Shown: positions 2,045-31,475 of the stretch, in pieces | How the letters are laid out: every line of letters starts with the position of its first letter | Position numbering within the stretch: position 1 is the stretch's first letter | Assembly (NCBI GenBank): GCA_016201505.1 | Contig: JACQCQ010000002.1 | Span: 12,750-76,749, forward strand | Direction of reading: 5' to 3' | DNA length: 64,000 nt | Origin: Candidatus Sungiibacteriota bacterium | Lineage (GTDB): Bacteria; Patescibacteriota; Minisyncoccia; Sungbacterales; JACQCQ01 | The notes under the pieces: generated by a model | The model's input: only the letters and a program-made list of their open reading frames with translations | Told to the model about the DNA's origin: nothing | Database searches by the model: none | Program-made: the position numbers and the translations under genes

Positions 2045-2207
2045 TCTGTTTTCCCCTTATTCTGTTGGTAGTGAACTAAAACTGTGGTGGCATCGTATCA
2101 ACCGTTGCAGGATGCGTCAATTCGTATATTTTTGCTACAATGCTTACATATTTATTGTATGGAATACGAACCGGTGATTGGGATTGTCCCGATTTGTCAA
2201 TTTTGAA

Positions 2208-2489
2208 ATGCCTTACGTTTATATACTAATTTCTAAGAAAGACAGAAGATATTACGTTGGGTCTACAACTGACTTAGATCTAAGATTAAAAATGCATAAT
2301 TCTGGTACAGTGACCTCAACTCGATTTTATAGACCCTGGCAGCTTTTTTATTCTGAACAATTTGATACATTGGGCGAAGCAGTCAGTCGAGAAAGGAAAA
2401 TTAAATCTTGGAAAAAACGAACCGCCATTGAACGATTAGTAAATGGCATTTCAAAATTTGAAACAAATCGAGGATCCTCGACCGATTAA
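2208..2489 (+). CDS. Small GIY-YIG nuclease-family protein (UPF0213/COG2827-like), copy 1
   Basis: MPYVYILISKKDRRYYVGSTTDLDLRLKMHNSG...SRERKIKSWKK matches the GIY-YIG (YVYIL...YVG.T.DL..RL..HN.G) pattern. ATG at 2208 lies inside a terminal inverted repeat. Confidence 0.75.
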   Translation: MPYVYILISKKDRRYYVGSTTDLDLRLKMHNSGTVTSTRFYRPWQLFYSEQFDTLGEAVSRERKIKSWKKRTAIERLVNGISKFETNRGSSTD

Positions 2490-2498
2490 AATCGGTCG
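2479..2498 (+). terminator. 8-bp stem hairpin (CGACCGAT taaa ATCGGTCG) across the GIY-YIG stop, just upstream of gatB
   Basis: Perfect inverted repeat seen directly. No clear T-tract, so the function is uncertain. Confidence 0.3.
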
Positions 2499-2516
2499 GG
2501 AAAGTACACACCGAGT

Positions 2517-4025
2517 ATGGATTATGAAGCTGTTATAGGTATAGAGTGTCACGTCGAACTCAAAACGCGGACGAAGATGTTCTGCGACTCTTTAAATGAT
2601 CCCGATGAGAAGCATCCGAATGTGAACGTCTGTCCGATCTGCCTGGGGCATCCCGGCACATTGCCGACGATCAATAAAGCCGCGGTTGAGAAAGTTATTC
2701 TCGTTGGGCTCGCCCTGCATGCCGAAATTCCTGAATACTCGCAGTTTGATCGCAAAAATTATTTTTATCCTGATTTGCCGAAGGGCTATCAGATTTCCCA
2801 GTATGAGCATCCCTTGGTCAAAGGCGGCTATCTTGAATTTAAATCGGCTGACGGCGCGGTGCGGCACATTCGCATCACGCGGGTTCATTTGGAAGAAGAC
2901 ACCGGACGGCTGATGCACCAGGGTAGTCCCTCGACAAGCTCGGGACGACCAACTTCGTTGGTCGATTTCAACCGTGCCGGGATACCCCTGATGGAACTTG
3001 TCACCGAGCCGGATGTGAGAAGCGCGGAAGAAGCGCGCAGATTCGGCGAAGAGCTGCAGCTTATTATTCGGTACACGGGCGCTTCCGATGCGGATATGGA
3101 AAAGGGGCAGATGCGGGTTGAAGCCAACGTCTCGATCAGGCCCAAAGGCTCAAAGGAACTCGGCACTAAAGTCGAATTAAAAAATATCAATTCATTTCGC
3201 TTTGTCGAAAAGGCGGTGCTCTATGAGATCGCGCGTCAGACAAAACTTTTAGAAGAAGGCGGCAAGGTGATTCAGGAGACGCGCGGCTGGGATTCCGTGA
3301 GGGAAGTGACATTTTCACAGCGTATAAAAGAGGGCGCGACGGACTATCGCTACTTTCCCGAGCCCGATTTGCCGCCGCTTCTCGTTGATCAGAAGTGGCT
3401 CGCATCCATCCGTGCCAAATTAACTGAACTGCCCTGGCAGAAGCGGGTTCGGTTTGCCAGCGAATATGGACTGGATGATGCAACCAGCGAAGTTTTTATT
3501 CGCGAACCGAAATTAGCCGAGTTTTTTGAGGAGGTGGTTTCTGAACTAGAGGAATGGATCGCTTCGATGGGGGACAGAGTCATTAAATCAAAGGCCATAA
3601 AACTTGCCTCCAACTATATTACGAGCGACCTGCAGAAATTGCGGAACGAAACTGGCGCTCTCGTCGACGAGATGAACATTACCGCCGAGAATTTCGCGGA
3701 ACTCATGGCGCTGGTCTACGAAAATAAAATTTCATCGGCGGCGGCCAAACAAGTCTTGGGTGAAATGTTTAAAACCGGCGGCGACCCAGCGCAGATTATC
3801 GAGACCAAGAATTTAACTCAGGAAAGCGGCGAGTCGGCACTCCAGAATACAGTTCTCGAATTGATTGATGCGCATAAAGATATTGCCGAGCAAGTAAGAA
3901 GCGGCAAAAATCCGAACGCGATCCAGGCGCTGATTGGCGCCGGCATGAAAAAGACCCAAGGCAAAGCCAACCCGGCGGTGCTGCGGAGACTGTTTGAAGA
4001 GAATTTGAATTTGAAAAGAATTTGA
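2517..4025 (+). CDS. gatB: Asp/Glu-tRNA(Asn/Gln) amidotransferase subunit B
   Basis: MDYEAVIGIECHVELKTRTKMFC... is the canonical GatB N-terminus. Full-length 502-aa ORF. Confidence 0.95.
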   Translation: MDYEAVIGIECHVELKTRTKMFCDSLNDPDEKHPNVNVCPICLGHPGTLPTINKAAVEKVILVGLALHAEIPEYSQFDRKNYFYPDLPKGYQISQYEHPLVKGGYLEFKSADGAVRHIRITRVHLEEDTGRLMHQGSPSTSSGRPTSLVDFNRAGIPLMELVTEPDVRSAEEARRFGEELQLIIRYTGASDADMEKGQMRVEANVSIRPKGSKELGTKVELKNINSFRFVEKAVLYEIARQTKLLEEGGKVIQETRGWDSVREVTFSQRIKEGATDYRYFPEPDLPPLLVDQKWLASIRAKLTELPWQKRVRFASEYGLDDATSEVFIREPKLAEFFEEVVSELEEWIASMGDRVIKSKAIKLASNYITSDLQKLRNETGALVDEMNITAENFAELMALVYENKISSAAAKQVLGEMFKTGGDPAQIIETKNLTQESGESALQNTVLELIDAHKDIAEQVRSGKNPNAIQALIGAGMKKTQGKANPAVLRRLFEENLNLKRI

Positions 4026-4318: not shown

Positions 4319-4414
4319 GGTCACGGGGCAAGCCAGGAGCCTGGGTTCGATTCCCGCCTTCGCATTGGTGTGAGGGCAAGCCATAGGCGCGGTTTCGATT
4401 ACCGCTGGCCGCAC
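4319..4414 (+). repeat. Two tandem tRNA 3'-half-like units (variable region + T-arm + acceptor 3' strand, each ending CGCA)
   Basis: Unit A is ...GGGCAAGCCAGGAGCCTGGGTTCGATTCCCGCCTTCGCA. Unit B is ...GGGCAAGCCATAGGCGCGGTTTCGATTACCGCTGGCCGCA and has a perfect T-arm GCGGT-TTCGATT-ACCGC. No matching 5' halves were found. Confidence 0.5.
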
Positions 4415-8178: not shown

Positions 8179-8251
8179 GCCACCTTAGCTCAGCTGGTAG
8201 AGCAGCACTTTCGTAAAGTGAAGGTCCCGAGTTCGAATCTCGGAGGTGGCT
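8179..8251 (+). tRNA. tRNA-Thr (anticodon CGT)
   Basis: Manual fold: acceptor GCCACCT/AGGTGGC, D-arm GCTC-AGCTGGTA-GAGC, anticodon loop TTCGTAA (U33, CGT, A37), T-arm CCGAG-TTCGAAT-CTCGG, discriminator T. Confidence 0.75.
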
Positions 8252-8268
8252 CTGATAGAATAAGATGA

Positions 8269-8337
8269 ATGGCTGACATTCCCGCACGTCTTAAAAAAAC
8301 AAAAACTAATATCCGCGTGCTCGCGGAACGTCTTTGA
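8269..8337 (+). other. Relic upstream copy of the RF2 leader ORF0 (22 codons MADIPARLKKTKTNIRVLAERL ending CTT TGA C)
   Basis: ATG at 8269 is in frame through CTT(8332-8334) TGA(8335-8337). It is homologous in length and sequence to the functional ORF0 at 8636 (MNDIQQRLNIVRDKVRVLAERL) and shares its last 28 nt exactly. Confidence 0.5.
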
Positions 8338-8339
8338 CC

Positions 8340-8630
8340 CCGCCCCTTGAGATTTATTATGTATGATATGTATGTGCTCGGTATGAGTAATGGACAATTT
8401 TATGCCGGCTTTGCATCAGACTTAAAAAAGCGAGTTGCAGAACATAAACATGGTAAAGTTTCTACAACAAAAAAATATCTCCCAGTTTCGCTGATATTTA
8501 TGAATGCTATCTTTCCGAGCGAGATGCAAAACATAGAGAATATATGCTAAAGAAATTTGGCAGTACGTATTCTCACCTCAAGAAACGTATTAAAGATAGC
8601 ATTCAGAAATCTCAAGGGCGGGGTTTGACC
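8340..8630 (+). mobile_element. GIY-YIG mini-element copy 2 with terminal inverted repeats and flanking TTTGACC repeats
   Basis: Left end TTTGACC|CCGCCCCTTGAG at 8333-8351, right end CTCAAGGGCGGGG|TTTGACC at 8611-8630. The inverted repeat has an 8-bp perfect core CCCTTGAG/CTCAAGGG extended to about 13 bp. It encloses the GIY-YIG ORF. The whole unit lies between two copies of the 28-bp prfB recoding segment (8312-8339 and 8679-8706). Confidence 0.6.
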
Positions 8631-8633
8631 TAA
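8359..8633 (+). pseudogene. GIY-YIG nuclease-family gene, copy 2, interrupted by a +1 frameshift in a T-run near 8497-8500
   Basis: N-terminal part MYDMYVLGMSNGQFYAGFASDLKKRVAEHKHGK...KKYLPVSLI matches the GIY-YIG pattern. The conserved C-terminal part (YECYLSERDAKHREYMLKKFGSTYSHLKKRIKDSIQKSQG) continues in the -1 frame to TAA at 8631-8633, consistent with a single T inserted in ATATTTATG. Confidence 0.6.
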
Positions 8634-8635
8634 AT

Positions 8636-9749
8636 ATGAATGATATACAACAAAGGTTGAATATTGTACGAGATAAGGTCCGCGTGCTCGCGGAACGTCT
8701 TTGACCTGCGCCAACTTCGCGAGGACATTTTAAAATACGAGTCTGAATTATCAGCGTCGCATATTTGGCAGAATGATCCCGAACGGGCGAAAGAGTTGGG
8801 ATCGCAAATAGCCAATAGCAAAAAAGAAATCGCGCGCTGGGAACATATCACGGGCGAGGCCGCGACGCTTGAGGAACTCTGGGCCATCGCCGGAGCCAGT
8901 CCCGATTCCGGGTTTCTCCGCGAATTTGATGAGCGGCTCTTTATGCTTGAGCAGAGTCTCCGGGCAGTCGAAATTGAATATTTATTTAGCGGAAAATATG
9001 ATAAAGGCTCGGCGCTGGTTTCGATTTATTCCGGCGCCGGAGGCAAAGACGCCGAAGATTGGGCGGCGATGCTGGCGCGCATGTACGAGCGCTACGCTGA
9101 ACGCCTGGGCTGGAAGGTGATCCGCGTCCACGAACATAACGGCGAGTACCACGGCCCGTCGGGCTGGGGGATTAAAAACGTAACACTCGATATAAAAGGC
9201 GACTTTGCTTATGGCTATTTAAAACATGAGCGCGGCGTGCATCGGCTGGTGCGCATCTCGCCGTTTTCATCGCAGTCACTGCGGCACACCTCATTTGCGC
9301 TGGTTGAAGCCCTGCCCGAGATGATTGAGCCGGAAGAAATCGAAATCAAACCCGAAGAAATTACCTTTGATTTTTTCCGCGCGTCAGGTCCGGGCGGCCA
9401 AAATGTAAATAAACGTGAGACGGCGGTGCGCGTGATTCATAATCCGACCGGCATACAGGCAACGGCTCAAAGCGAACGGACGCAGGAACGAAATCGTGAG
9501 ACGGCCATGCAGCACTTGCGGGCCAAGTTGTACCAAAAAAAGTTAGCCGAGATCGAGGCCGAACGGCGCGGCATCCGCGGCGAGCAGGTATCGGTTGAAT
9601 GGGGTTCGCAAATTCGCTCGTATGTCCTGCATCCATACCGGCTCGTCAAAGACCATCGCACCAATTACGAAACCTCGGATGTTGAGGGGGTACTCGACGG
9701 TGATCTAGACGCGCTGGTTGAGGCTTCGATTCGAAGAGTAATGCCGTAG
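8636..9749 (+). CDS. prfB: Peptide chain release factor 2, expressed through a programmed +1 ribosomal frameshift
   Basis: ORF0 runs ATG 8636..CTT 8701 then TGA 8702-8704. The +1 frame (GAC at 8703) continues DLRQLREDIL...SPF...GGQ... to 9749. SPF and GGQ motifs identify RF2. Confidence 0.9.
8699..8705 (+). promoter_or_regulatory. RF2 programmed +1 frameshift (recoding) site CTT TGA C
   Basis: Classic autoregulatory shifty site: CTT in frame 0 is followed by the in-frame TGA, and TTT GAC is read in the +1 frame. Confidence 0.8.
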
Positions 9750-9811
9750 TTTGGTTCCCCGCGGCAGGCTTGGTATAATGCTACCAGTGCAGGATACTGC
9801 AGGGTCCGCTT

Positions 9812-10492
9812 ATGATTTTTCTTGATAATGTCTCAAAAATTTATTCTGAAACAGCAACTGCCTTAAAAGGAATTACCCTGCGCATTAAGCCTAAAGAGTT
9901 TGTTTCGCTGGTCGGCCCTTCCGGCTCCGGCAAGACGACCCTGTTTAAGCTTTTAATTCGCGAGGAGGATCCCTCGGAGGGGAAGATTTTTTTTGAGGAT
10001 GTCGATATTACGGGTATGGCGGCGAAAGACTTGCCCTATTTGCGCCGCCGCGTCGGCCGCGTATTCCAGGACTATCGGCTGCTGCCCATGAAAAATACTT
10101 TTGAAAATGTGGCCTTTGCCATGGAGGCGGCAGGCAAAACGAAAGAAGAGATCGAGCATGACGTGCCGCAAGTCTTGGAACTTGTCGGCCTCGCGGACAA
10201 GTCGAATAATTTTCCGCATGAATTGTCGGGCGGCGAGTCGCAACGGGTTGCCATTGCGCGGGCTTTAGTCAATCGTCCCGATGTGATTCTGGCCGATGAG
10301 CCGACGGGAAATTTGGATCCCACCAATACCTGGGATATCATCAGGCTGCTTGAAAAAATTAATGAACTTGGAACCACAGTCATGCTCGCCACGCATGATA
10401 AGGAAGTCATCGATTCATTGGGCCGCCGCGTCGTGGCGCTTGAGAAGGGCGAGGTCATTCGTGACGAGAAGAAAGGCAAATACGAGGAATAA
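9812..10492 (+). CDS. ftsE: Cell-division ABC transporter ATP-binding protein
   Basis: Walker A GPSGSGKTT, ABC signature LSGGESQRVAIARAL, Walker B ILADEPTGNLD. Immediately followed by an FtsX-like permease. Confidence 0.9.
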   Translation: MIFLDNVSKIYSETATALKGITLRIKPKEFVSLVGPSGSGKTTLFKLLIREEDPSEGKIFFEDVDITGMAAKDLPYLRRRVGRVFQDYRLLPMKNTFENVAFAMEAAGKTKEEIEHDVPQVLELVGLADKSNNFPHELSGGESQRVAIARALVNRPDVILADEPTGNLDPTNTWDIIRLLEKINELGTTVMLATHDKEVIDSLGRRVVALEKGEVIRDEKKGKYEE

Positions 10493-10500
10493 TTATTTGC

Positions 10501-11412
10501 ATGAAATTATCCGAACTTATTCGCAGAATCAGTCTGTCAGCCGCCTTGTCCTTTTGGCGGAACGGGCTTCTTTCGACGGCGACAGTCTTGGTCATGGTGC
10601 TGGCACTTTTTGTCATCGGCGGCCTTCTGCTTTCCTCCGTTTTGATGAATTCAGTGCTGGATAGTCTGCAAAATAAAATTGATGTCTCGGTGTATTTCCT
10701 GCCAAATACGCCCGAGGATTTAATTTTGGGACTGAAATCTGAATTTCTTAAAATTCCGAATGTAAAAAATATTTTGTATGTCTCTCAAGCCGAAGCCTTA
10801 GAAAACTTTAAGACCAAAAATCAGGCTAACCCGACCATCGCTGAATCTTTAAAGGAACTGGATACGAATCCTCTTGAAGGTTCCTTAAATATTACCGCTC
10901 TCGATCCAACAAAATTTTCTGACATCTCCTCAATCATCGAAGCGCGGAAGGAGCAATCGATTGATAAGATCAATTTTCATGAAAATCAGTCAGCCATTGC
11001 GAGATTAACTGAAATTATGAATGGTTCGCGAAGCGCCGGTGCGGTGCTCGCCGTCGTTCTCATAATTGTCGCAGTGACGGTTACATATAATACGGTGCGC
11101 CTCGCCATCTTTACGGCCAAAGACGAAATTTCCATCATGCGGCTCGTTGGTGCGACCGCCTGGTATGTCCGATTACCCTTTCTATTGGAAGGCGTCATTG
11201 ACGGGGTGATTTCAGCTATTATCACGACATTCGTTTTCCTGCCGATTGTTTCGATTCTCTCGCCTAAAATCAGTTCGTTTACCGGCGGCATAGATTTATG
11301 GGCTTATTTTGGCTCGCATTTTTTTGAATTCTTTTTCATTCTCTTATTTATCGGCGTAGGGCTGGGGATTATCTCGGCTTTTCTGGCCACCCGCAAATAC
11401 TTGAAAGTTTAG
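10501..11412 (+). CDS. ftsX: Cell-division ABC transporter permease
   Basis: 303 aa with an N-terminal TM segment, periplasmic domain and three C-terminal TM segments. Position directly after ftsE. Confidence 0.85.
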   Translation: MKLSELIRRISLSAALSFWRNGLLSTATVLVMVLALFVIGGLLLSSVLMNSVLDSLQNKIDVSVYFLPNTPEDLILGLKSEFLKIPNVKNILYVSQAEALENFKTKNQANPTIAESLKELDTNPLEGSLNITALDPTKFSDISSIIEARKEQSIDKINFHENQSAIARLTEIMNGSRSAGAVLAVVLIIVAVTVTYNTVRLAIFTAKDEISIMRLVGATAWYVRLPFLLEGVIDGVISAIITTFVFLPIVSILSPKISSFTGGIDLWAYFGSHFFEFFFILLFIGVGLGIISAFLATRKYLKV

Positions 11413-11527
11413 ACATCTCGTCTATACTACGGTCAATTTCGTTCATACCAGTTCGGTTCTTTTATAGCGAACTCAATACTCGTTGTTTCCATCTTTAACA
11501 TGCGGAGAAGGTCCGCAAGAGGTCATC

Positions 11528-11872
11528 ATGGCGATACGAGTTAGGACGATCGAGTTCTACGGCACAACGGATGCAACTTTCACGGAGGAAGACTGCGAAG
11601 CATCGCTCTTTCGTCCCCACTACGCGCGCATCGAGGGTGGGGACGACGACCCGAAAGCAGTACTCGAGAAAGAGTTGAGATCTCGCCGGGAGATCGAGGA
11701 GGCCATTCTCGAGCCCCAGCGCCGGGCGAGGAAGAGGGCGGGTCAAGATATCAGCCGGGATCTGAATCTGGTTTACACCGCGCTGATCCCGATCTGCCAG
11801 GAGCGGTGGAAGGTGACGGAGGGCGAGTCGCTGGACGTCAGGTACCGCATTCGCATCTCGCGACCGCTCTAG
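11528..11872 (+). CDS. Hypothetical charged protein encoded in a GC-rich islet
   Basis: ATG preceded by a GAGG-type RBS. The + strand is supported by a downstream terminator. An antisense ORF at 11495..11887 is rejected. Local GC is above that of the flanking genes. Confidence 0.4.
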   Translation: MAIRVRTIEFYGTTDATFTEEDCEASLFRPHYARIEGGDDDPKAVLEKELRSRREIEEAILEPQRRARKRAGQDISRDLNLVYTALIPICQERWKVTEGESLDVRYRIRISRPL

Positions 11873-11888
11873 AGTGCGTGCGCCCACG

Positions 11889-11925
11889 GGCGCGGCCGTC
11901 CATCGGCCGCGCCCCGTTTTATTAT
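11889..11925 (+). terminator. Rho-independent terminator (GGCGCGGCCG tcca TCGGCCGCGCC + TTTTATTATTT)
   Basis: GC-rich stem followed by a T-tract. Confidence 0.6.
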
Positions 11926-12238
11926 TTGATCCCGTTAGAAAATCCCGTAACTTAAAAAAAGTTGTGGCTTGAATAATTTTAAATCTGGCGCTGGATAATG
12001 GCTCGTGTTAATTTTCTATCGGGATTGAAATATCACTTAAAAATCGGCATTATAGACAAAGTTTTCTTATTATCAGGCAGACCGTAGGTCTACCATAAGA
12101 AAACCTTAAGCGAAGAATCTCTTTTCAAAACACTCAATTTGCGAGCGACCATGGTGTCATAGACGAGCGAGCAAATTGGTGAGAGAGTTTTATCGGTGGG
12201 AAAACGAACTATTTTGAAAAGACGGTTCGAGCAGACAA

Positions 12239-12309
12239 TGCGGGATCGGCTAACGGCAGGCCACGAGACTCTGAATCTCGGTATCTTGGTTCGAATCCAA
12301 GTCCCGCAG
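12239..12309 (+). tRNA. tRNA-Gln (anticodon CTG)
   Basis: Manual fold: acceptor TGCGGGA/TCCCGCA, D-arm GGCT-AACGGCA-GGCC, anticodon stem CGAGA/TCTCG with loop CTCTGAA (U33, CTG, A37), T-arm CTTGG-TTCGAAT-CCAAG, discriminator G. Confidence 0.75.
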
Positions 12310-12712
12310 CCCTTCGACAAGCTCAGGGCCTTTGCCATAATAGGCTCATGAGTTGGAATGTTTACATTCTTCTTTGCGATCAGAAAACTTTTTATGTTGG
12401 TCTAACAGATAATATTGAAAGACGAGTGAACCAGCATAATCGGAAAGAGTCATTTTTCACTAAAAAGTTTTCTGATGTAAGGCTGGTGTATCAAGAAGAA
12501 TATAGAAACAGAGCCACGGCTGAAAAAAGAGAACTGCAGCTCAAGAAGTGGAGTATCGCAAAGAAGAAAGCTCTCATTATTGGAGATAAGGAATTGCTAA
12601 AGAAATTAAGCAAAAGCCGTGAGGTTGACGATATGCTGGGGTAGTAAAGATAATGGTGAGCAGTTCGACAAGCTCACTGTTGAACGTGTCGAATCCATCC
12701 AAGTCCCGCAGC
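12291..12712 (+). mobile_element. GIY-YIG mini-element copy 3 inserted at the 3' end of tRNA-Gln, bounded by direct repeats of the tRNA 3' end
   Basis: tRNA 3' segment TCGAATCCAAGTCCCGCAGC (12291-12310) recurs as TCGAATCCATCCAAGTCCCGCAGC (12689-12712) after the GIY-YIG gene. Sub-terminal TTCGACAAGCTCA is present near both ends (12313-12325 and 12664-12676). Confidence 0.55.
12348..12644 (+). CDS. Small GIY-YIG nuclease-family protein, copy 3 (intact)
   Basis: MSWNVYILLCDQKTFYVGLTDNIERRVNQHN...RELQLKKWSIAKKKALI matches the GIY-YIG pattern and the C-terminal KxW region of this family. Confidence 0.8.
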   Translation: MSWNVYILLCDQKTFYVGLTDNIERRVNQHNRKESFFTKKFSDVRLVYQEEYRNRATAEKRELQLKKWSIAKKKALIIGDKELLKKLSKSREVDDMLG

Positions 12713-12897
12713 TATCCTTCATTAAAGCTACGGAATAGCAGGCCATCTTTCGCCAAGGTCCACTACGCCTCCAGAGCTGCAAGCAACGGAGCGTTACAGA
12801 ATGGCATGCCCCCAGTTGAGGAAATTTGGAGTCAGGCTTTAGGGGCTAAAGCCTGAATGCGGTTGCTATTTAGCCCTGAATGCGATAAAAACAAGTC

Positions 12898-13158
12898 ATG
12901 GCTAAAAAACTATTTGTAGGAGGGCTGTCGTACGACACAACCGACAGCTCGTTGCGGGAAGCCTTCTCGAAGGCCGGAACGGTTGAGTCGGCAGCAGTCA
13001 TTACCGATAAAATGTCCGGTCGGTCCAAGGGATTTGGTTTTGTCGAAATGTCATCGGAAGATGAAGCGGCAAACGCCATTTCAACGCTAAACGGCAAAAA
13101 TCTGGACGGGCGTGCGATTACGGTAAACGAGGCGAGGCCGCAGGAACCAAGACGCTAA
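12898..13158 (+). CDS. RRM-type RNA-binding protein
   Basis: RNP2 LFVGGL and RNP1 KGFGFVEM motifs. 86 aa. Confidence 0.85.
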   Translation: MAKKLFVGGLSYDTTDSSLREAFSKAGTVESAAVITDKMSGRSKGFGFVEMSSEDEAANAISTLNGKNLDGRAITVNEARPQEPRR

Positions 13159-13174
13159 GGCATAGCAAAATGAA

Positions 13175-13210
13175 AACCACCCGACGTGACGTCGGGGGGT
13201 TTTCATTTTG
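13175..13210 (+). terminator. Rho-independent terminator (AAAACCACCCGACG tga CGTCGGGGGGTTTT + TCATTTTG)
   Basis: Long GC stem followed by a T-tract. Confidence 0.6.
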
Positions 13211-13280
13211 CGCACCCATTCATCTTTTGAGGAGAAGGCCGTCGTTCTTTTGCGAAAGATCAGCGCTTCGGGTATGGTAG

Positions 13281-14389
13281 AAAAAATTAGAGACAGTTGT
13301 ATGAGAAAAACTCTGCCCGTCAGAACGTGGATTGAACTCGACAAAAAGGCCCTGCTCGCCAATTTTAATTTTTTTGCCTCACGGGCACGGGGCATGGAAA
13401 TTATGGCGGTGATTAAATCAAACGCCTACGGACATGGCCTGGTTACGGTCGCTCGATGCATCTCGGGAAAATCAAAAAAAATCTGGCTCGGTGTTGATTC
13501 GATTACCGAAGCTTTGGCATTGCGCCGTGAAAAAATAAAAAATCCGATTTTGGTTTTAGGCTATACCCTGCCGAATCGCATGAAAGAGGCGCGCCAAAAT
13601 AACGTTTCGATAACCATTTCTAATTTTGAAAGCCTGAAGGCGCTCGAAACCTTAAAAGCCAAGCCGGCCTTTCATATTAAAATCGAAACCGGCATGAATC
13701 GACTCGGATTTAAAAAGGCAGACTGGCCAAAATTAATTTCCCGGCTGCAAAAATCAAACCTGACGCCCGATGGGATCTATTCGCATCTGGCCGAGGCCAC
13801 GGATAGAAAATATTCAAAAAAACAAATCGAGTGTTTTCGCGAGGCGATTTTAAGTTTTAAAAACTCCGGCATCAGGCCAAAATTCGCGCACATCTTAAAA
13901 ACTGAAGGCATACTTAATTTCCCCAGTGTCGGGAGCATGGTGCGTATTGGCATCGGTCTTTATGGCTACATTCCCTCGCGGCTTAAAAATCTAAAGCCGG
14001 TGATGACCTGGAAAACGATGGTGGCGGAGGTAAAAAATGTGAGACAGGGTGAGCTCATCGGTTATGGCTTGACGGAAAAGTTTCGCCGCGATTCCCGCGT
14101 TGCGGTACTGCCCATCGGCTACTGGCATGGGTATGATCGGGGGTTGTCATCTATTGGCGAAGTCTTAATTCACGGTCAACGCGTAAAAGTTATGGGACGC
14201 GTCTCGATGGACATGACCGTGGTGGATATAACGAATATTCAAAACGTTAAAGTGGGCGATGAAGCGGTACTTCTCGGCCGGCAGGGGAATGATTATATTT
14301 CGGGTGATGAAATTGCCGACAAGATCGGAACAATCGTCTACGAAGTCATTACGCGCATTAATCCGCTGATTTATAAGGTTGTCGTATAA
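13281..14389 (+). CDS. alr: Alanine racemase
   Basis: PLP-site motif AVIKSNAYGHG. Length and domain order are typical. ATG 13281 is chosen over the upstream alternative start. Confidence 0.85.
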
Positions 14390-30701: not shown

Positions 30702-31475
30702 GTTATGTCCCTTATTGCCGACCTTTTTCTTCCTGCTTTATCTAACTAATAGCGGGTAAGAATCGTCTCATCTATTTTTTGGTTTGATCAGCGGCGCAGG
30801 CATCAAATTTGACGAAAGATATTATTTAGTTTTTAGCACAATTTCGGCTCAAAAGGCGTTGACTTTGGTGTCATACCGGCATACTCTGATATTGGCCCGT
30901 AGGGTTCTTTTTTTACCTCGACGGCTTGGGCTTGGCTAATCTTGGATGAAAGTAGCGGCTAGGCTTATCCCCGTCAATTGGTTATCCACACGAGAGAGCT
31001 TGAGCCTGGAAGAGTCGAGCCATATAATAGGAACATCGCATATGGCCTGAAAGTTTGGCGAAATAAACGAACCGAATTTTTGGTGTCGTTTGTGCGTGTA
31101 AGAAATCAGAGCATGTTCCAGGGATAGTTAAAAAAATCAGGACCGAAAAGTTCAGCGGCTTAAAATTCACTAAGCAACTGAACTTTCCGGTACTGGCAAT
31201 CTCGGAGAGAATTGCGGTTGACGCAAGGAACTTCGGGAGGAGGCGTACGGAAAGAGTGGTTCGACAAGCTCACTATAAACAGTGCGGCATCGAATCAATC
31301 TTGATCAGCTTGAGATTGAGTCATCATACTCGTCCCGAGTGCAGTCGAGGGATTGATCATTCACAACTGAATGATTACGGTCGAAATATTCTTTGCCAGA
31401 AGAATGTAAATTCTTTTTGCAATTGGAGTAAGTATTTTAGTCTAGATTATTCTCAGATGCTCATCTGGTCGGCCT

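What the first reader, a model, noticed from the sequence alone, without database searches (positions are those of the whole stretch)
12239..12715. Second GIY-YIG gene inserted at the 3' end of tRNA-Gln with an att-like duplication of the tRNA 3' end
The intact tRNA-Gln (12239-12309) is followed by a 297-nt GIY-YIG ORF. Then comes a second copy of the tRNA 3' terminal 20 nt (TCGAATCCA[+TCC]AGTCCCGCAGC, 12689-12712; 20 of 24 positions match, with a 4-nt tandem insertion). Both flanks also carry TTCGACAAGCTCA in direct orientation. Duplicated tRNA 3' ends are the classic scar of elements that integrate into a tRNA gene and replace the piece they disrupt. Here the cargo is only about 400 bp and encodes a GIY-YIG nuclease instead of an integrase.
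Basis: seen in the sequence. Interest (0 to 1): 0.7.

Follow-up and report, generated by a model that had tools for sequence, protein, structure and literature searches.

The report
Tiny nuclease element targeting tRNA ends
A 386-bp selfish DNA element carrying one small GIY-YIG nuclease gene sits just after an intact tRNA-Gln gene and has duplicated the last 16 bases of that tRNA; related elements do the same at 11 or more other tRNA types in Patescibacteria, and I found no published description of this kind of element.

Summary
tRNA-Gln(CTG) (12239-12311) is followed by a 98-aa GIY-YIG ORF (12348-12644). An exact 16-nt copy of the tRNA 3' end (ATCCAAGTCCCGCAGC) lies at 12295-12310 and again at 12697-12712.

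Among about 36 relatives next to a tRNA, 24 carry an exact 16-18-nt duplication. It always runs from the T-loop (position 57-59) to the discriminator plus 1-2 nt. The targets are Asn, Gln, Asp, Ser, His, Glu and Lys tRNAs. The elements are about 355-390 bp long and have 13-nt terminal inverted repeats (TTCGACAAGCTCA / TGAGCYTGTCGAA). Each repeat sits in a short hairpin whose stem covaries and spans the element-target junction. One stem base covaries with the tRNA discriminator.

The syntenic FtsX-linked tRNA-Gln is empty in about 30 related metagenome loci, including the closest relative.

The protein is a UPF0213/SLX1-like nuclease with no DNA-binding domain, and no integrase is present.

Best reading: an autonomous, tRNA-3'-end-specific, transposon-like element with a target-site duplication. 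Its mechanism is inferred, not shown. Seven literature searches found no description.

The parts
12239..12311 (+). Intact tRNA-Gln(CTG), the target gene
   Evidence: ARAGORN; Rfam RF00005, 57.2 bits. The syntenic FtsX-linked tRNA-Gln is present in 39 related loci.
12295..12310 (+). Left copy of the 16-nt duplication (ATCCAAGTCCCGCAGC). It covers tRNA positions 59-73 plus 1 nt and is part of the functional tRNA.
   Evidence: The same T-loop-to-discriminator span is duplicated in 24 of 36 related loci.
12311..12696 (+). The inserted element proper, 386 bp
   Evidence: Boundaries come from the duplication and from the empty-site locus L138, where the window's right-flank sequence abuts the tRNA.
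12309..12329 (+). Left-end hairpin. The stem is G C|C C T ... A G G G C, around the left terminal repeat TTCGACAAGCTCA (12313-12325). The element/target junction lies inside the stem.
   Evidence: RNAalifold and pair counts on 22 elements: 98% paired, and 3 of 5 pairs covary. The partner of the discriminator base is C for G (15 elements) and T for A (5 elements).
12314..12341 (+). Promoter-like site: -35 TCGACA (inside the left repeat), 16-nt spacer, TG-extended -10 CATAAT that ends 6 nt before the ATG. This suggests a leaderless mRNA.
   Evidence: 10 of 12 matches. The same spacing of repeat, TATAAT-like box and ATG is seen by eye in relatives.
12348..12644 (+). GIY-YIG nuclease gene, 98 aa, UPF0213/SLX1-like, catalytic domain only
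   Evidence: Pfam PF01541 E=4e-15. Profile hit to UPF0213 structures 1zg2 and 1ywl, E=2e-11 and 1e-9. AF2 model pLDDT 85, with Foldseek best hits UPF0213 then Slx1. Y6, Y16, G18, R26, H30 and E62 are invariant in 40 homologues.
12367..12568 (.). Nested inverted repeats inside the ORF. Outer arms are 12367-12378 and 12557-12568; inner arms are 12379-12394 and 12461-12476. Their function is unexplained.
   Evidence: Perfect 14-nt and 16-nt arms. They are conserved with compensatory changes in 22 elements: 93% and 82% paired versus 45-56% when the partners are slid, and 0 of 500 shuffles reach the observed value. L022 and L051 carry a multi-base compensatory replacement. The strand cannot be assigned.
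12609..12632 (+). Inner right repeat (AGCAAAAGCCGTGAGGTTGACGAT) within the ORF 3' end. It is complementary to the left-end 24 nt.
   Evidence: 18 of 24 positions in the window. The family mean is 19 of 24 versus 14.9 for shuffled sequence (maximum 18), with locus-specific matches in L010 and L008.
12653..12698 (+). Right-end hairpin. The stem is ATGG (12653-12656) / CC|AT (12695-12698). The loop is expanded and contains TGAGC, the direct TTCGACAAGCTCA copy (12664-12676) and the terminal inverted repeat TGAACGTGTCGAA (12681-12693).
   Evidence: In 27 relatives the 3-4-bp stem around TGAGCYTGTCGAA shows 17 stem types, with 92 of 108 cells paired versus a shuffled mean of 62 (maximum 76). The repeat lies 2 nt from the duplication in 20 of 27.
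12697..12712 (+). Right copy of the 16-nt duplication, a non-functional tRNA 3'-end fragment
12713..12745 (+). Original 3' flank of the tRNA (TATCCTTCATTAAAGCTACGGAATAGCAGG..)
   Evidence: 86% identical over 36 nt to the sequence directly following tRNA-Gln in the empty locus L138. It also follows the element in L010.

Best explanation
Window 12311-12696 is one copy of a family of roughly 355-390-bp autonomous mobile elements found in Patescibacteria (CPR).

Each copy has:
- two hairpin-forming ends that carry 13-nt inverted repeats;
- an inward promoter;
- a single gene for a roughly 95-aa SLX1/UPF0213-like GIY-YIG nuclease.

The elements insert immediately after tRNA genes and leave the tRNA intact. 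Insertion duplicates the 16-18 bp from T-loop position 57-59 to one or two bases past the discriminator, giving a target-site duplication.

Inferred mechanism:
1. The nuclease is structure-selective. It recognises TTCGA-containing stem-loops, namely the T-arm of the target gene and the two element ends.
2. It nicks the two target strands about 16 bp apart, one nick in the T-loop and one just past the discriminator.
3. It nicks the element ends inside the hairpin stems, 2 nt outside each repeat.
4. Host repair and replication join the element and fill the gaps, which creates the duplication.
5. Two subterminal bases at each end pair with the flanking target bases (A59-T60, and N73 plus 1 nt). 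This helps set the cut site and restricts each lineage to tRNAs with a matching discriminator.

Status of the claims:
- Shown: the anatomy, recurrence at many tRNAs, empty sites, covariation and the protein family.
- Inferred: that the GIY-YIG protein is the mobilising enzyme, the position and polarity of the nicks, and the repair steps.
For: 1. The exact 16-nt duplication is non-random.
2. Of 67 genome loci encoding relatives, about 33 of the 49 closest have a same-strand tRNA ending 35-110 nt upstream. Many of the rest sit at contig ends.
3. 24 of 36 loci have an exact 16-18-nt duplication of that tRNA's own 3' end, always starting in the T-loop. The targets cover 11 or more isoacceptors.
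4. The ends are conserved: CC/AC+TTCGACAAGCTCA on the left and TGAGCYTGTCGAA+2 nt on the right.
5. The hairpin stems covary at both ends and include 2 target bases. The discriminator base covaries with an internal base.
6. Protein clades follow the discriminator or hairpin type but contain several tRNA species. The window's element (Gln) is sister to L003 (Asn) at 78% aa identity.
7. Presence and absence:
   - About 30 syntenic FtsX-linked tRNA-Gln loci are empty.
   - The closest relative, L071, is empty.
   - L138 shows the exact empty junction.
   - In an unbiased 602-kb sample, 2 of 133 tRNAs are occupied.
8. Tandem, truncated and frameshifted copies and mismatched flanks occur, as expected for selfish DNA.
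9. The nuclease residues are intact and the fold is UPF0213/Slx1-like. Slx1 is a structure-specific nuclease (established knowledge; PMC8287910).
10. There is no other ORF or known RNA in the element.
Against: - No recent movement was seen. Elements from different species are at most about 80% identical in DNA. Identical proteins were found only in one genomic context each.
- Copy number per genome could not be measured.
- A hydrolytic nuclease cannot perform strand transfer, so integration has to rely on host functions that were not identified.
- A 98-aa protein with no DNA-binding domain is a surprising sole determinant of target specificity.
- tRNA-Gln is also occupied in Sungiibacteriota L010 and Yonathbacteria L007/L114. 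Some copies may therefore be old and inherited vertically.
- The ORF-internal helices and the inner right repeat have no role in this model.
Confidence: 0.7

Rival explanations
1. It is a free-standing homing endonuclease gene. The nuclease cuts empty copies of the same tRNA gene in other genomes. The break is repaired by copying from a filled allele. The tRNA body (left) and the duplicated 16-18 nt (right) act as built-in homology arms, so the duplication is carried along rather than made at each insertion.
For: - The protein has a GIY-YIG domain, the classic homing-endonuclease fold, and gives a weak hit to the group I intron endonuclease model.
- The element is flanked on both sides by tRNA sequence.
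- The same tRNA-Gln locus is occupied in three distant lineages.
- No recent intragenomic copies were seen.
Against: - Close relatives sit at different tRNA species, each with a perfect duplication of that tRNA's own end. A carried arm would give a mismatched acceptor stem after switching tRNA.
- The protein has no DNA-binding domain. TIGR01453 scores 17 bits against a cutoff of 56.
- Terminal inverted repeats and hairpin stems that span the junctions are not features of homing endonuclease genes.
Confidence: 0.15
2. It is the scar of an integrase-type integrative element. On this view the direct repeats are attL and attR made by a tyrosine recombinase acting in trans, and the GIY-YIG gene is cargo.
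For: Direct repeats running from the T-loop to the 3' end are the typical att sublocation of tRNA-integrating islands (established knowledge: Williams 2002, recalled from memory, not checked here). The repeats themselves are confirmed.
Against: - There is no integrase in or next to the element.
- One element family uses 11 or more tRNA species, whereas an integrase is specific for one att core.
- The inverted-repeat hairpin ends are conserved and covarying.
- The element is only 386 bp long.
Confidence: 0.03
3. It is a host-beneficial, non-mobile tRNA-linked module. The nuclease and the hairpins would serve tRNA 3'-end processing, transcription termination or defence, and the extra tRNA 3' end would be a functional decoy or processing signal.
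For: - The left hairpin pairs with the discriminator base and is often followed by a T-run.
- The ORF is intact and conserved.
- Copies are stable within populations.
Against: - Only about 2% of tRNAs in an unbiased sample are occupied, and most orthologous tRNA-Gln loci lack the element.
- Tandem, truncated and frameshifted copies exist.
- The tRNA species used vary between genomes.
- The symmetric inverted-repeat ends suit DNA recognition, not one RNA function.
Confidence: 0.05
4. It uses RNA-guided targeting. An RNA transcribed from the right end (hairpin scaffold plus the 16-nt tRNA copy) would guide the nuclease to empty tRNA sites, by analogy with TnpB/omega-RNA, whose guide also comes from the DNA flanking the right end.
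For: - A structured right end is followed by a 16-18-nt target-identical segment.
- An outward promoter-like site lies at 12625-12654.
- The element has extensive conserved secondary structure.
Against: - The predicted start site would fall inside the hairpin loop, not before it.
- A 98-aa GIY-YIG domain has no known RNA-binding module.
- The two ends are symmetric at the DNA level, which an RNA scaffold does not require.
- The strand of the internal helices cannot be assigned.
Confidence: 0.05

Closest known systems
UPF0213 / YhbQ / COG2827 proteins and the eukaryotic SLX1 nuclease domain (GIY-YIG superfamily)
   Same: Closest in sequence and fold. Profile E=2e-11 and 1e-9 to BH0048 and EF2693, with Slx1 next. 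Like them it is a roughly 95-aa catalytic domain only. SLX1 cuts branched and stem-loop DNA, which fits hairpin ends.
   Different: No function or mobility has been assigned to bacterial UPF0213 proteins in anything I found. SLX1 needs SLX4 and has a RING domain. Here the gene sits inside a repeat-bounded element with a target duplication.
Free-standing and intron-borne GIY-YIG homing endonucleases (I-TevI, I-BmoI, T4 Seg/Mob)
   Same: A selfish nuclease gene of the GIY-YIG fold placed beside a conserved gene. T4 SegB is linked to the phage tRNA gene region (PMC13096335, listed).
   Different: Those enzymes are about 200-260 aa with a C-terminal DNA-binding domain. They spread by double-strand-break repair and have no terminal repeats or target duplication. 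TIGR01453 scores 17 bits against a cutoff of 56 here, and I-TevI ranks only 38th in the fold search.
Casposons (Cas1-solo transposons)
   Same: Terminal inverted repeats plus a long (14-15 bp) target-site duplication. Some integrate at the 3' end of a tRNA-Pro gene (own knowledge; related papers PMC4779613 and PMC6614799 were listed but not read).
   Different: They are 8-20 kb, are mobilised by a Cas1 integrase plus a family B polymerase, use one target, and have no hairpin ends.
tRNA-integrating genomic islands and prophages (tyrosine integrases, T-loop sublocation)
   Same: An intact tRNA followed by the element and a displaced copy of the T-loop-to-3'-end segment.
   Different: They need an integrase and an attP that carries the tRNA piece, and each integrase uses one tRNA. 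None of this holds here.
IS200/IS605 family
   Same: Very small, with a single small protein, subterminal hairpins and sequence-specific insertion. Their cleavage sites are read by base pairing with bases next to the hairpin (own knowledge). The analogue here is the covariation of an element base with flanking target bases.
   Different: They use an HUH/Y1 transposase, have no inverted repeats, make no target duplication, and have no tRNA preference.
Mobile GIY-YIG/LAGLIDADG ORFs in fungal mitochondria that duplicate a host gene terminus (Allomyces atp6; Glomeromycota mORFs, PMC3630166 listed)
   Same: A nuclease ORF inserted at a gene end with a second copy of that end, so the host gene stays intact. 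This resembles the other two GIY-YIG genes of this window even more closely (gatB and prfB 5' ends).
   Different: Those are organellar. Their duplications are long, diverged and of foreign origin. The ORFs are often fused in frame, and no hairpin ends are described.

Membership tests
GIY-YIG nuclease superfamily | GIY-YIG catalytic domain detectable by profile | tested here: met
   PF01541, E=4.4e-15, 56 bits against a cutoff of 22.6.
GIY-YIG nuclease superfamily | Conserved catalytic residues (two Tyr, Arg, His/Tyr, Glu) and the beta-beta-alpha-beta-alpha core fold | tested here: met
   Y6, Y16, G18, R26, H30 and E62 are invariant in 40 sequences. The AF2 model has pLDDT 85 with strands 3-10, 14-20 and 44-52 plus helices. 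It matches GIY-YIG structures.
UPF0213 / SLX1-like branch | Closer to UPF0213 and Slx1 than to the UvrC, I-TevI or EndoII branches | tested here: met
   hmmsearch against PDB: 1zg2 at 2e-11, 1ywl at 1e-9, Slx1 at 1e-3, EndoII at 0.4. Foldseek ranks 1-10 are UPF0213 and Slx1, with UvrC at rank 31 and I-TevI at rank 38.
GIY-YIG homing endonuclease (I-TevI/Seg type) | C-terminal DNA-binding domain joined by a linker, total about 200-260 aa | tested here: not met
   The protein is 98 aa with only the catalytic domain. TIGR01453 scores 17.4 bits against a cutoff of 56.
GIY-YIG homing endonuclease (I-TevI/Seg type) | Spread by homing into one cognate site, without terminal repeats or target duplication | tested here: not met
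   Terminal inverted repeats, a 16-18-bp duplication and 11 or more tRNA targets.
tRNA-integrating island (tyrosine/serine recombinase) | A recombinase gene within the element | tested here: not met
   The only ORF of 60 aa or more in 12311-12696 with a protein-family match is the GIY-YIG gene.
tRNA-integrating island (tyrosine/serine recombinase) | Direct repeats made of the tRNA 3' part | tested here: met
   A 16-nt exact repeat.
tRNA-integrating island (tyrosine/serine recombinase) | One element lineage uses one tRNA att site | tested here: not met
   Related elements lie at Asn, Gln, Asp, Ser, His, Glu and Lys tRNAs.
DNA transposon / insertion sequence (generic) | Terminal inverted repeats | tested here: met
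   The 13-nt repeats TTCGACAAGCTCA and TGAGCYTGTCGAA are conserved across about 30 loci. There is also a 24-nt imperfect inner pair.
DNA transposon / insertion sequence (generic) | Target-site duplication of characteristic length | tested here: met
   An exact 16-18-nt duplication in 22 of the 36 loci, 24 counting the 19-nt and 22-nt cases.
DNA transposon / insertion sequence (generic) | Transposase of a known class (DDE, HUH, Ser/Tyr, Cas1) | tested here: not met
   Only a GIY-YIG domain was found.
DNA transposon / insertion sequence (generic) | Several copies per genome, with evidence of recent movement | tested here: inconclusive
   Only 64 kb of this genome is visible. Tandem and relic copies exist in L003, L028, L011 and L069. 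No near-identical copies at different sites were found.
IS200/IS605 | HUH Y1 transposase, with no inverted repeats and no duplication | tested here: not met
   Only the hairpin-end logic is shared.
Group I intron in a tRNA gene | Ribozyme core detectable; insertion inside the mature tRNA | tested here: not met
   Rfam at E<=1 finds only the tRNA. The tRNA is uninterrupted.

The most novel reading that the evidence does not exclude
These are the first examples of a new class of prokaryotic transposable element. Its only protein is a roughly 95-aa SLX1/UPF0213-like GIY-YIG nuclease. The nuclease recognises TTCGA-containing DNA hairpins, namely the element ends and the tRNA T-arm. A few element-to-target base pairs set the cut sites, and insertion makes a 16-18-bp duplication at tRNA 3' ends. 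If this extends to the two other GIY-YIG mini-elements in this window and their relatives at tRNA 5' ends, it would give a first biological role (selfish mobility) to at least part of the very large and uncharacterised bacterial UPF0213 family.
Probability: 0.4. Interest if true: 0.9.

Novelty: categorically new. Interest (0 to 1): 0.82.

Why it matters
- No class of prokaryotic mobile element that I know of or could find is driven by a GIY-YIG nuclease alone and also has inverted-repeat hairpin ends and a long target duplication.
- The UPF0213/YhbQ family has solved structures from structural-genomics projects released in 2005. It spans more than 17,000 50%-identity clusters. It still has no assigned function in bacteria.
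- These elements give a concrete, testable substrate for that family: T-arm DNA and the end hairpins.
- They add a DNA-element, bacterial case of tRNA-gene targeting as a safe landing site in very small, gene-dense genomes. Until now such targeting was known for integrases, casposons and eukaryotic retrotransposons.
- They explain recurrent assembly breaks and odd "FDKLR"-type peptide artefacts next to tRNAs in CPR genomes.
- A 95-aa nuclease with a defined, structure-based target could interest tool builders.

Tried and rejected
- Known RNA families. Rfam at E<=1 on 12100-12900 finds only the tRNA, so there is no intron, ribozyme or known guide RNA.
- A second tRNA or tRNA-like gene at the downstream repeat. 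ARAGORN and Rfam find none.
- Phage origin. One distant hit in 2.9 million viral contigs.
- Recent transposition.
  - Blastn between elements gives at most about 80% identity.
  - Identical proteins P0092 and P0104 occur in a single context each.
  - Exact-protein look-ups of the GIY-YIG, RRM and FtsX proteins returned nothing or only the same organism.
- Strand or RNA assignment of the internal helices from wobble pairs. The result is ambiguous: 14 G.T cells versus 28 A.C cells.
- Extended pairing between the left end and the outer right end beyond the 13-nt repeat. It is not conserved; the local hairpins are.
- Own-versus-other test on the 11 nt after the left repeat. It is weak (8.9 versus 8.3). 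Only the 24-nt measure and individual loci are convincing.
- Literature. Seven full-text searches, including the repeat sequences themselves, and three papers opened gave no description of tRNA-linked GIY-YIG elements. The library lacks most subscription journals, so absence is not proof.
Full report
**Observation**

ARAGORN places tRNA-Gln(CTG) at 12239-12311. Rfam scores it 57 bits and finds nothing else between 12100 and 12900. The next ORF, 12348-12644, encodes 98 aa with a GIY-YIG domain (E=4e-15).

The 16-mer ATCCAAGTCCCGCAGC occurs twice in 64 kb, at 12295-12310 (inside the tRNA) and at 12697-12712. Shuffles give 0.03 expected matches. TTCGACAAGCTCA is at 12313, 12664 and 31260. Two independent Logan assemblies carry the same arrangement. 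The source is a Candidatus Sungbacteria MAG.

**Relatives**

A word-indexed protein search gave 273 homologues, almost all from Patescibacteria. An alignment of 40 of them (A1) retrieved 67 loci from species-representative genomes.

- About 33 of the 49 closest loci have a same-strand tRNA ending 35-110 nt before the start codon. The tRNAs are Asn, Gln, Asp, Ser, His, Glu, Lys and Leu. Many of the remaining loci begin at a contig end.
- In 24 of 36 tRNA-linked loci an exact 16-18-nt copy of that tRNA's own 3' end lies 20-70 nt after the stop codon. Seven more have 11-15 nt.
- The copy always starts in the T-loop, mostly after GGTTCGA at position 59 and at position 57 or 58 in one subfamily. 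It ends 1-2 nt past the discriminator.
- Element length clusters at 352-393 bp. The window's element is 386 bp.

**Ends**

Every left junction reads tRNA end + CC or AC + TTCGACAAGCTCA + GGG(C/T) or GTGC. Every right junction reads (A)ATGG + TGAGCYTGTCGAA + 2 nt + duplication. These are therefore 13-nt terminal inverted repeats.

In the window the right hairpin loop is expanded by about 22 nt, and that expansion contains the direct TTCGACAAGCTCA copy. The same variant occurs in L006, L024, L036 and L038.

**Hairpins**

Left end, from an alignment of 22 complete elements (A3):
- The stem [N73 C|C/A C T]...[A G G/T G N'] is 98% paired.
- Three of its five pairs covary.
- The partner of the tRNA discriminator is C when the discriminator is G (15 elements) and T when it is A (5 elements).

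Right end:
- A 3-4-bp stem around the repeat shows 17 different complementary arm pairs, such as ATGG/CCAT, ATAG/CTAT, AGGG/CCCT, TCC/GGA and CAG/CTG.
- 92 of 108 cells are paired, against a shuffled mean of 62 and a maximum of 76.
- The repeat lies exactly 2 nt from the duplication in 20 of 27 loci.

Both element-target junctions therefore lie inside a stem, 2 nt outside the repeat, and the geometry is two-fold symmetric. That symmetry, identical hairpins on opposite strands, fits recognition of DNA better than it fits a single RNA function.

**Other conserved structure**

Inside the ORF, two nested inverted repeats are perfect in the window (14 nt and 16 nt) and conserved at synonymous sites across the family. 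In the combined structure (left hairpin plus the two internal helices) 88% of cells are paired, against 45-56% when the partners are slid, and 0 of 500 shuffles reach the observed value. The two internal helices are 93% and 82% paired.

L022 and L051 replace the inner helix by ATAATCG(A/G)AAAT and ATTTTCGATTAT. This multi-base compensatory change also alters the protein. Wobble counts do not identify the strand.

The left 24 nt are also complementary to the last roughly 24 nt of the ORF. The family mean is 19 of 24 against 14.9 for shuffled sequence, and L010 and L008 show locus-specific matches. I have no explanation for either feature.

A promoter-like site uses TCGACA in the left repeat as the -35 box. 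It has a TG-extended CATAAT box ending 6 nt before the ATG, which suggests a leaderless mRNA.

**Empty sites**

FtsE-FtsX followed by tRNA-Gln is syntenic in L010 (Sungiibacteriota) and L007 (Yonathbacteria), and both are occupied. A metagenome scan with an FtsX alignment gave 80 loci.

- 39 loci have the downstream tRNA-Gln, and only L092/L093 and L114 carry an element. About 30 loci with enough downstream DNA have neither the gene nor the repeats.
- The closest relative is L071 (FtsE 81% and FtsX 60% identical, tRNA 3' half identical). There the tRNA runs ..GCAGCCA straight into unrelated DNA.
- In L138 the tRNA is directly followed by TATCCTTCGCCAAGGCTACGGAATAG. The homologous sequence follows the right-hand duplication in the window (86% identical over 36 nt). 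This fixes the insertion point at 12310|12311.
- In this unbiased 602-kb sample only 2 of 133 tRNAs are occupied.

**Target switching**

A neighbour-joining tree of the proteins groups elements by hairpin and discriminator type:
- Glu, His and Lys, with an A discriminator;
- Gln, Asn and Asp, with a G discriminator;
- an Asn/Ser subfamily with the left end ACTTCGGCAAGCTCAGTGC.

Each clade contains several tRNA species. The window's Gln element is sister to an Asn element at 78% aa identity. Each copy duplicates its own tRNA's end exactly, so the duplication must be produced at insertion and is a target-site duplication.

Selfish-DNA decay is also visible:
- L003 has a tandem internally deleted copy plus a full copy that share three repeats.
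- L028, L069 and window 31256-31350 hold truncated relics.
- L048, L064 and L023 have broken ORFs.
- L031 and L035 have flanks that no longer match, which suggests rearrangement between copies.

**Protein**

The AF2 model has pLDDT 85. The nearest structures are the UPF0213 proteins BH0048 and EF2693, then Slx1. UvrC and I-TevI are far. The group I intron endonuclease model is far below its cutoff. There is no DNA-binding domain. The wider family is huge, with 17,525 clusters at E<=1e-3.

**Interpretation**

The best-supported reading is an autonomous transposon-like element specific for tRNA 3' ends, mobilised by its own structure-selective GIY-YIG nuclease. The cut positions are inferred from junction geometry, and the joining steps are unknown.

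Weaknesses:
- No recent movement was seen.
- Copy number per genome is unknown.
- A hydrolytic nuclease needs host help for integration.

Homing with a carried homology arm is the main rival, but it fits the frequent tRNA switching poorly. An integrase-type att scar, a host tRNA-processing module and RNA guidance are each unlikely, for the reasons listed under rivals.

**Novelty**

Seven full-text searches, including the repeat sequences themselves, and three opened papers found no description. The nearest precedents each share one feature only:
- casposons: inverted repeats, a long duplication and a tRNA 3' end target;
- IS200/IS605: hairpin ends and base-pair-guided cutting;
- homing endonucleases: the fold;
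- tRNA-integrating islands: the scar.

Noticed in passing
window 2157-2542: A second, different GIY-YIG mini-element lies at 2187-2501, with its ORF at 2208-2489 (Pfam E=5e-18). Its ends are TCCCGATTT and AATCGGTCGGGA, and a 14-nt inverted repeat brackets the ORF. It sits just before gatB. It is flanked by two 75%-identical copies of the gatB start (2157-2184, MEYEPVIGI.., and 2515-2542, MDYEAVIGI..). The downstream copy continues into gatB.
   Followed up: partly
L151 1908-2350; L153 2740-2982: Relatives of that second family sit at the 5' end of tRNA genes. In L151 the ORF runs into a tRNA, and a 17-nt copy of the tRNA 5' end (GCGGGATTAGTATAGTG) lies upstream, next to an 85-nt TCCCGATT...AATCGGGA module. 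In L153 an ORF-less copy of that module interrupts the D-loop region of a second copy of a tRNA.
   Followed up: partly
window 8267-8708: A third GIY-YIG gene (8359-8633) is frameshifted near 8495. It is bracketed by a 17-nt inverted repeat (CCCGCCCCTTGAGATTT / AAATCTCAAGGGCGGGG). It lies between two complete copies of the short first ORF of prfB (MADIPARLKKTKTNIRVLAERL* and MNDIQQRLNIVRDKVRVLAERL*). The last 28 nt of the two copies, including the CTT TGA C +1 frameshift site, are identical, while the rest is diverged. Only the downstream copy continues into prfB.
   Followed up: partly
window 31256-31350: An ORF-less relic in an intergenic region. GTTCGACAAGCTCACTATAAACAGTGCGGCATCGAATC resembles the window element's expanded right end (12662-12696). 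It is followed by TCCCGAGTGCAGTCGAGGGAT, a hairpin like the right end of L009. No tRNA is nearby.
   Followed up: partly
window 12713-12745; L138 2730-2767; L010 about 4337-4372: A conserved roughly 36-nt motif (CCTTCGNCAAGGCTACGGAATAG..TTATGCAT) follows tRNA-Gln in three lineages, whether or not the element is present. Its start resembles a degenerate left terminal repeat, so it may be the remnant of an older insertion.
   Followed up: partly
window 12625-12654: An outward-facing promoter-like site (TTGACG, 18-nt spacer, GATAAT). Its -35 box lies in the inner right repeat and its -10 box just before the right hairpin. Similar TTGNCG ... TAAAAT/TAAATG spacing is visible in several relatives. 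It could drive downstream genes or a right-end RNA.
   Followed up: no
L025, L035, L036, L041 (about 40 nt upstream of the left repeat): Some elements are preceded not by a recognised tRNA but by a short tRNA-like piece with an odd T-loop (GGTTCCAGACC). In L031 and L035 the right-hand duplicate is a tRNA-Glu end that does not match the left flank. L029 follows a tRNA-His-like gene with a non-canonical T-loop that ARAGORN missed.
   Followed up: no
L003-L069, L092 (anchor tRNAs): All the occupied tRNAs found read two-codon boxes or serine codons (Asn, Asp, His, Gln, Glu, Lys, Ser), plus a relic after tRNA-Pro in L069. None is Thr, Gly or Met, although these are common in the same loci. The sample is too small to say whether this is a real preference.
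   Followed up: no
L169 (window 8199-12311) and L001 (window 12282-14209): Short-read assemblies of the same organism break exactly at the tRNA-Gln 3' end, with a 30-nt overlap, and also inside tRNA-Thr. Many relatives likewise start at contig ends. These elements or their tRNA targets may be a recurrent cause of fragmented CPR assemblies.
   Followed up: no
P0021, P0041 (alignment A1, N-terminal extensions): Gene callers extend some homologues upstream through the left repeat and the tRNA. This produces artefactual peptides such as ..GEPFGRLRAC.. and ..VQVAAGSIPVIHP... The window's ORF 12196-12351 reads ..PFDKLRA.. across the same repeat.
   Followed up: no
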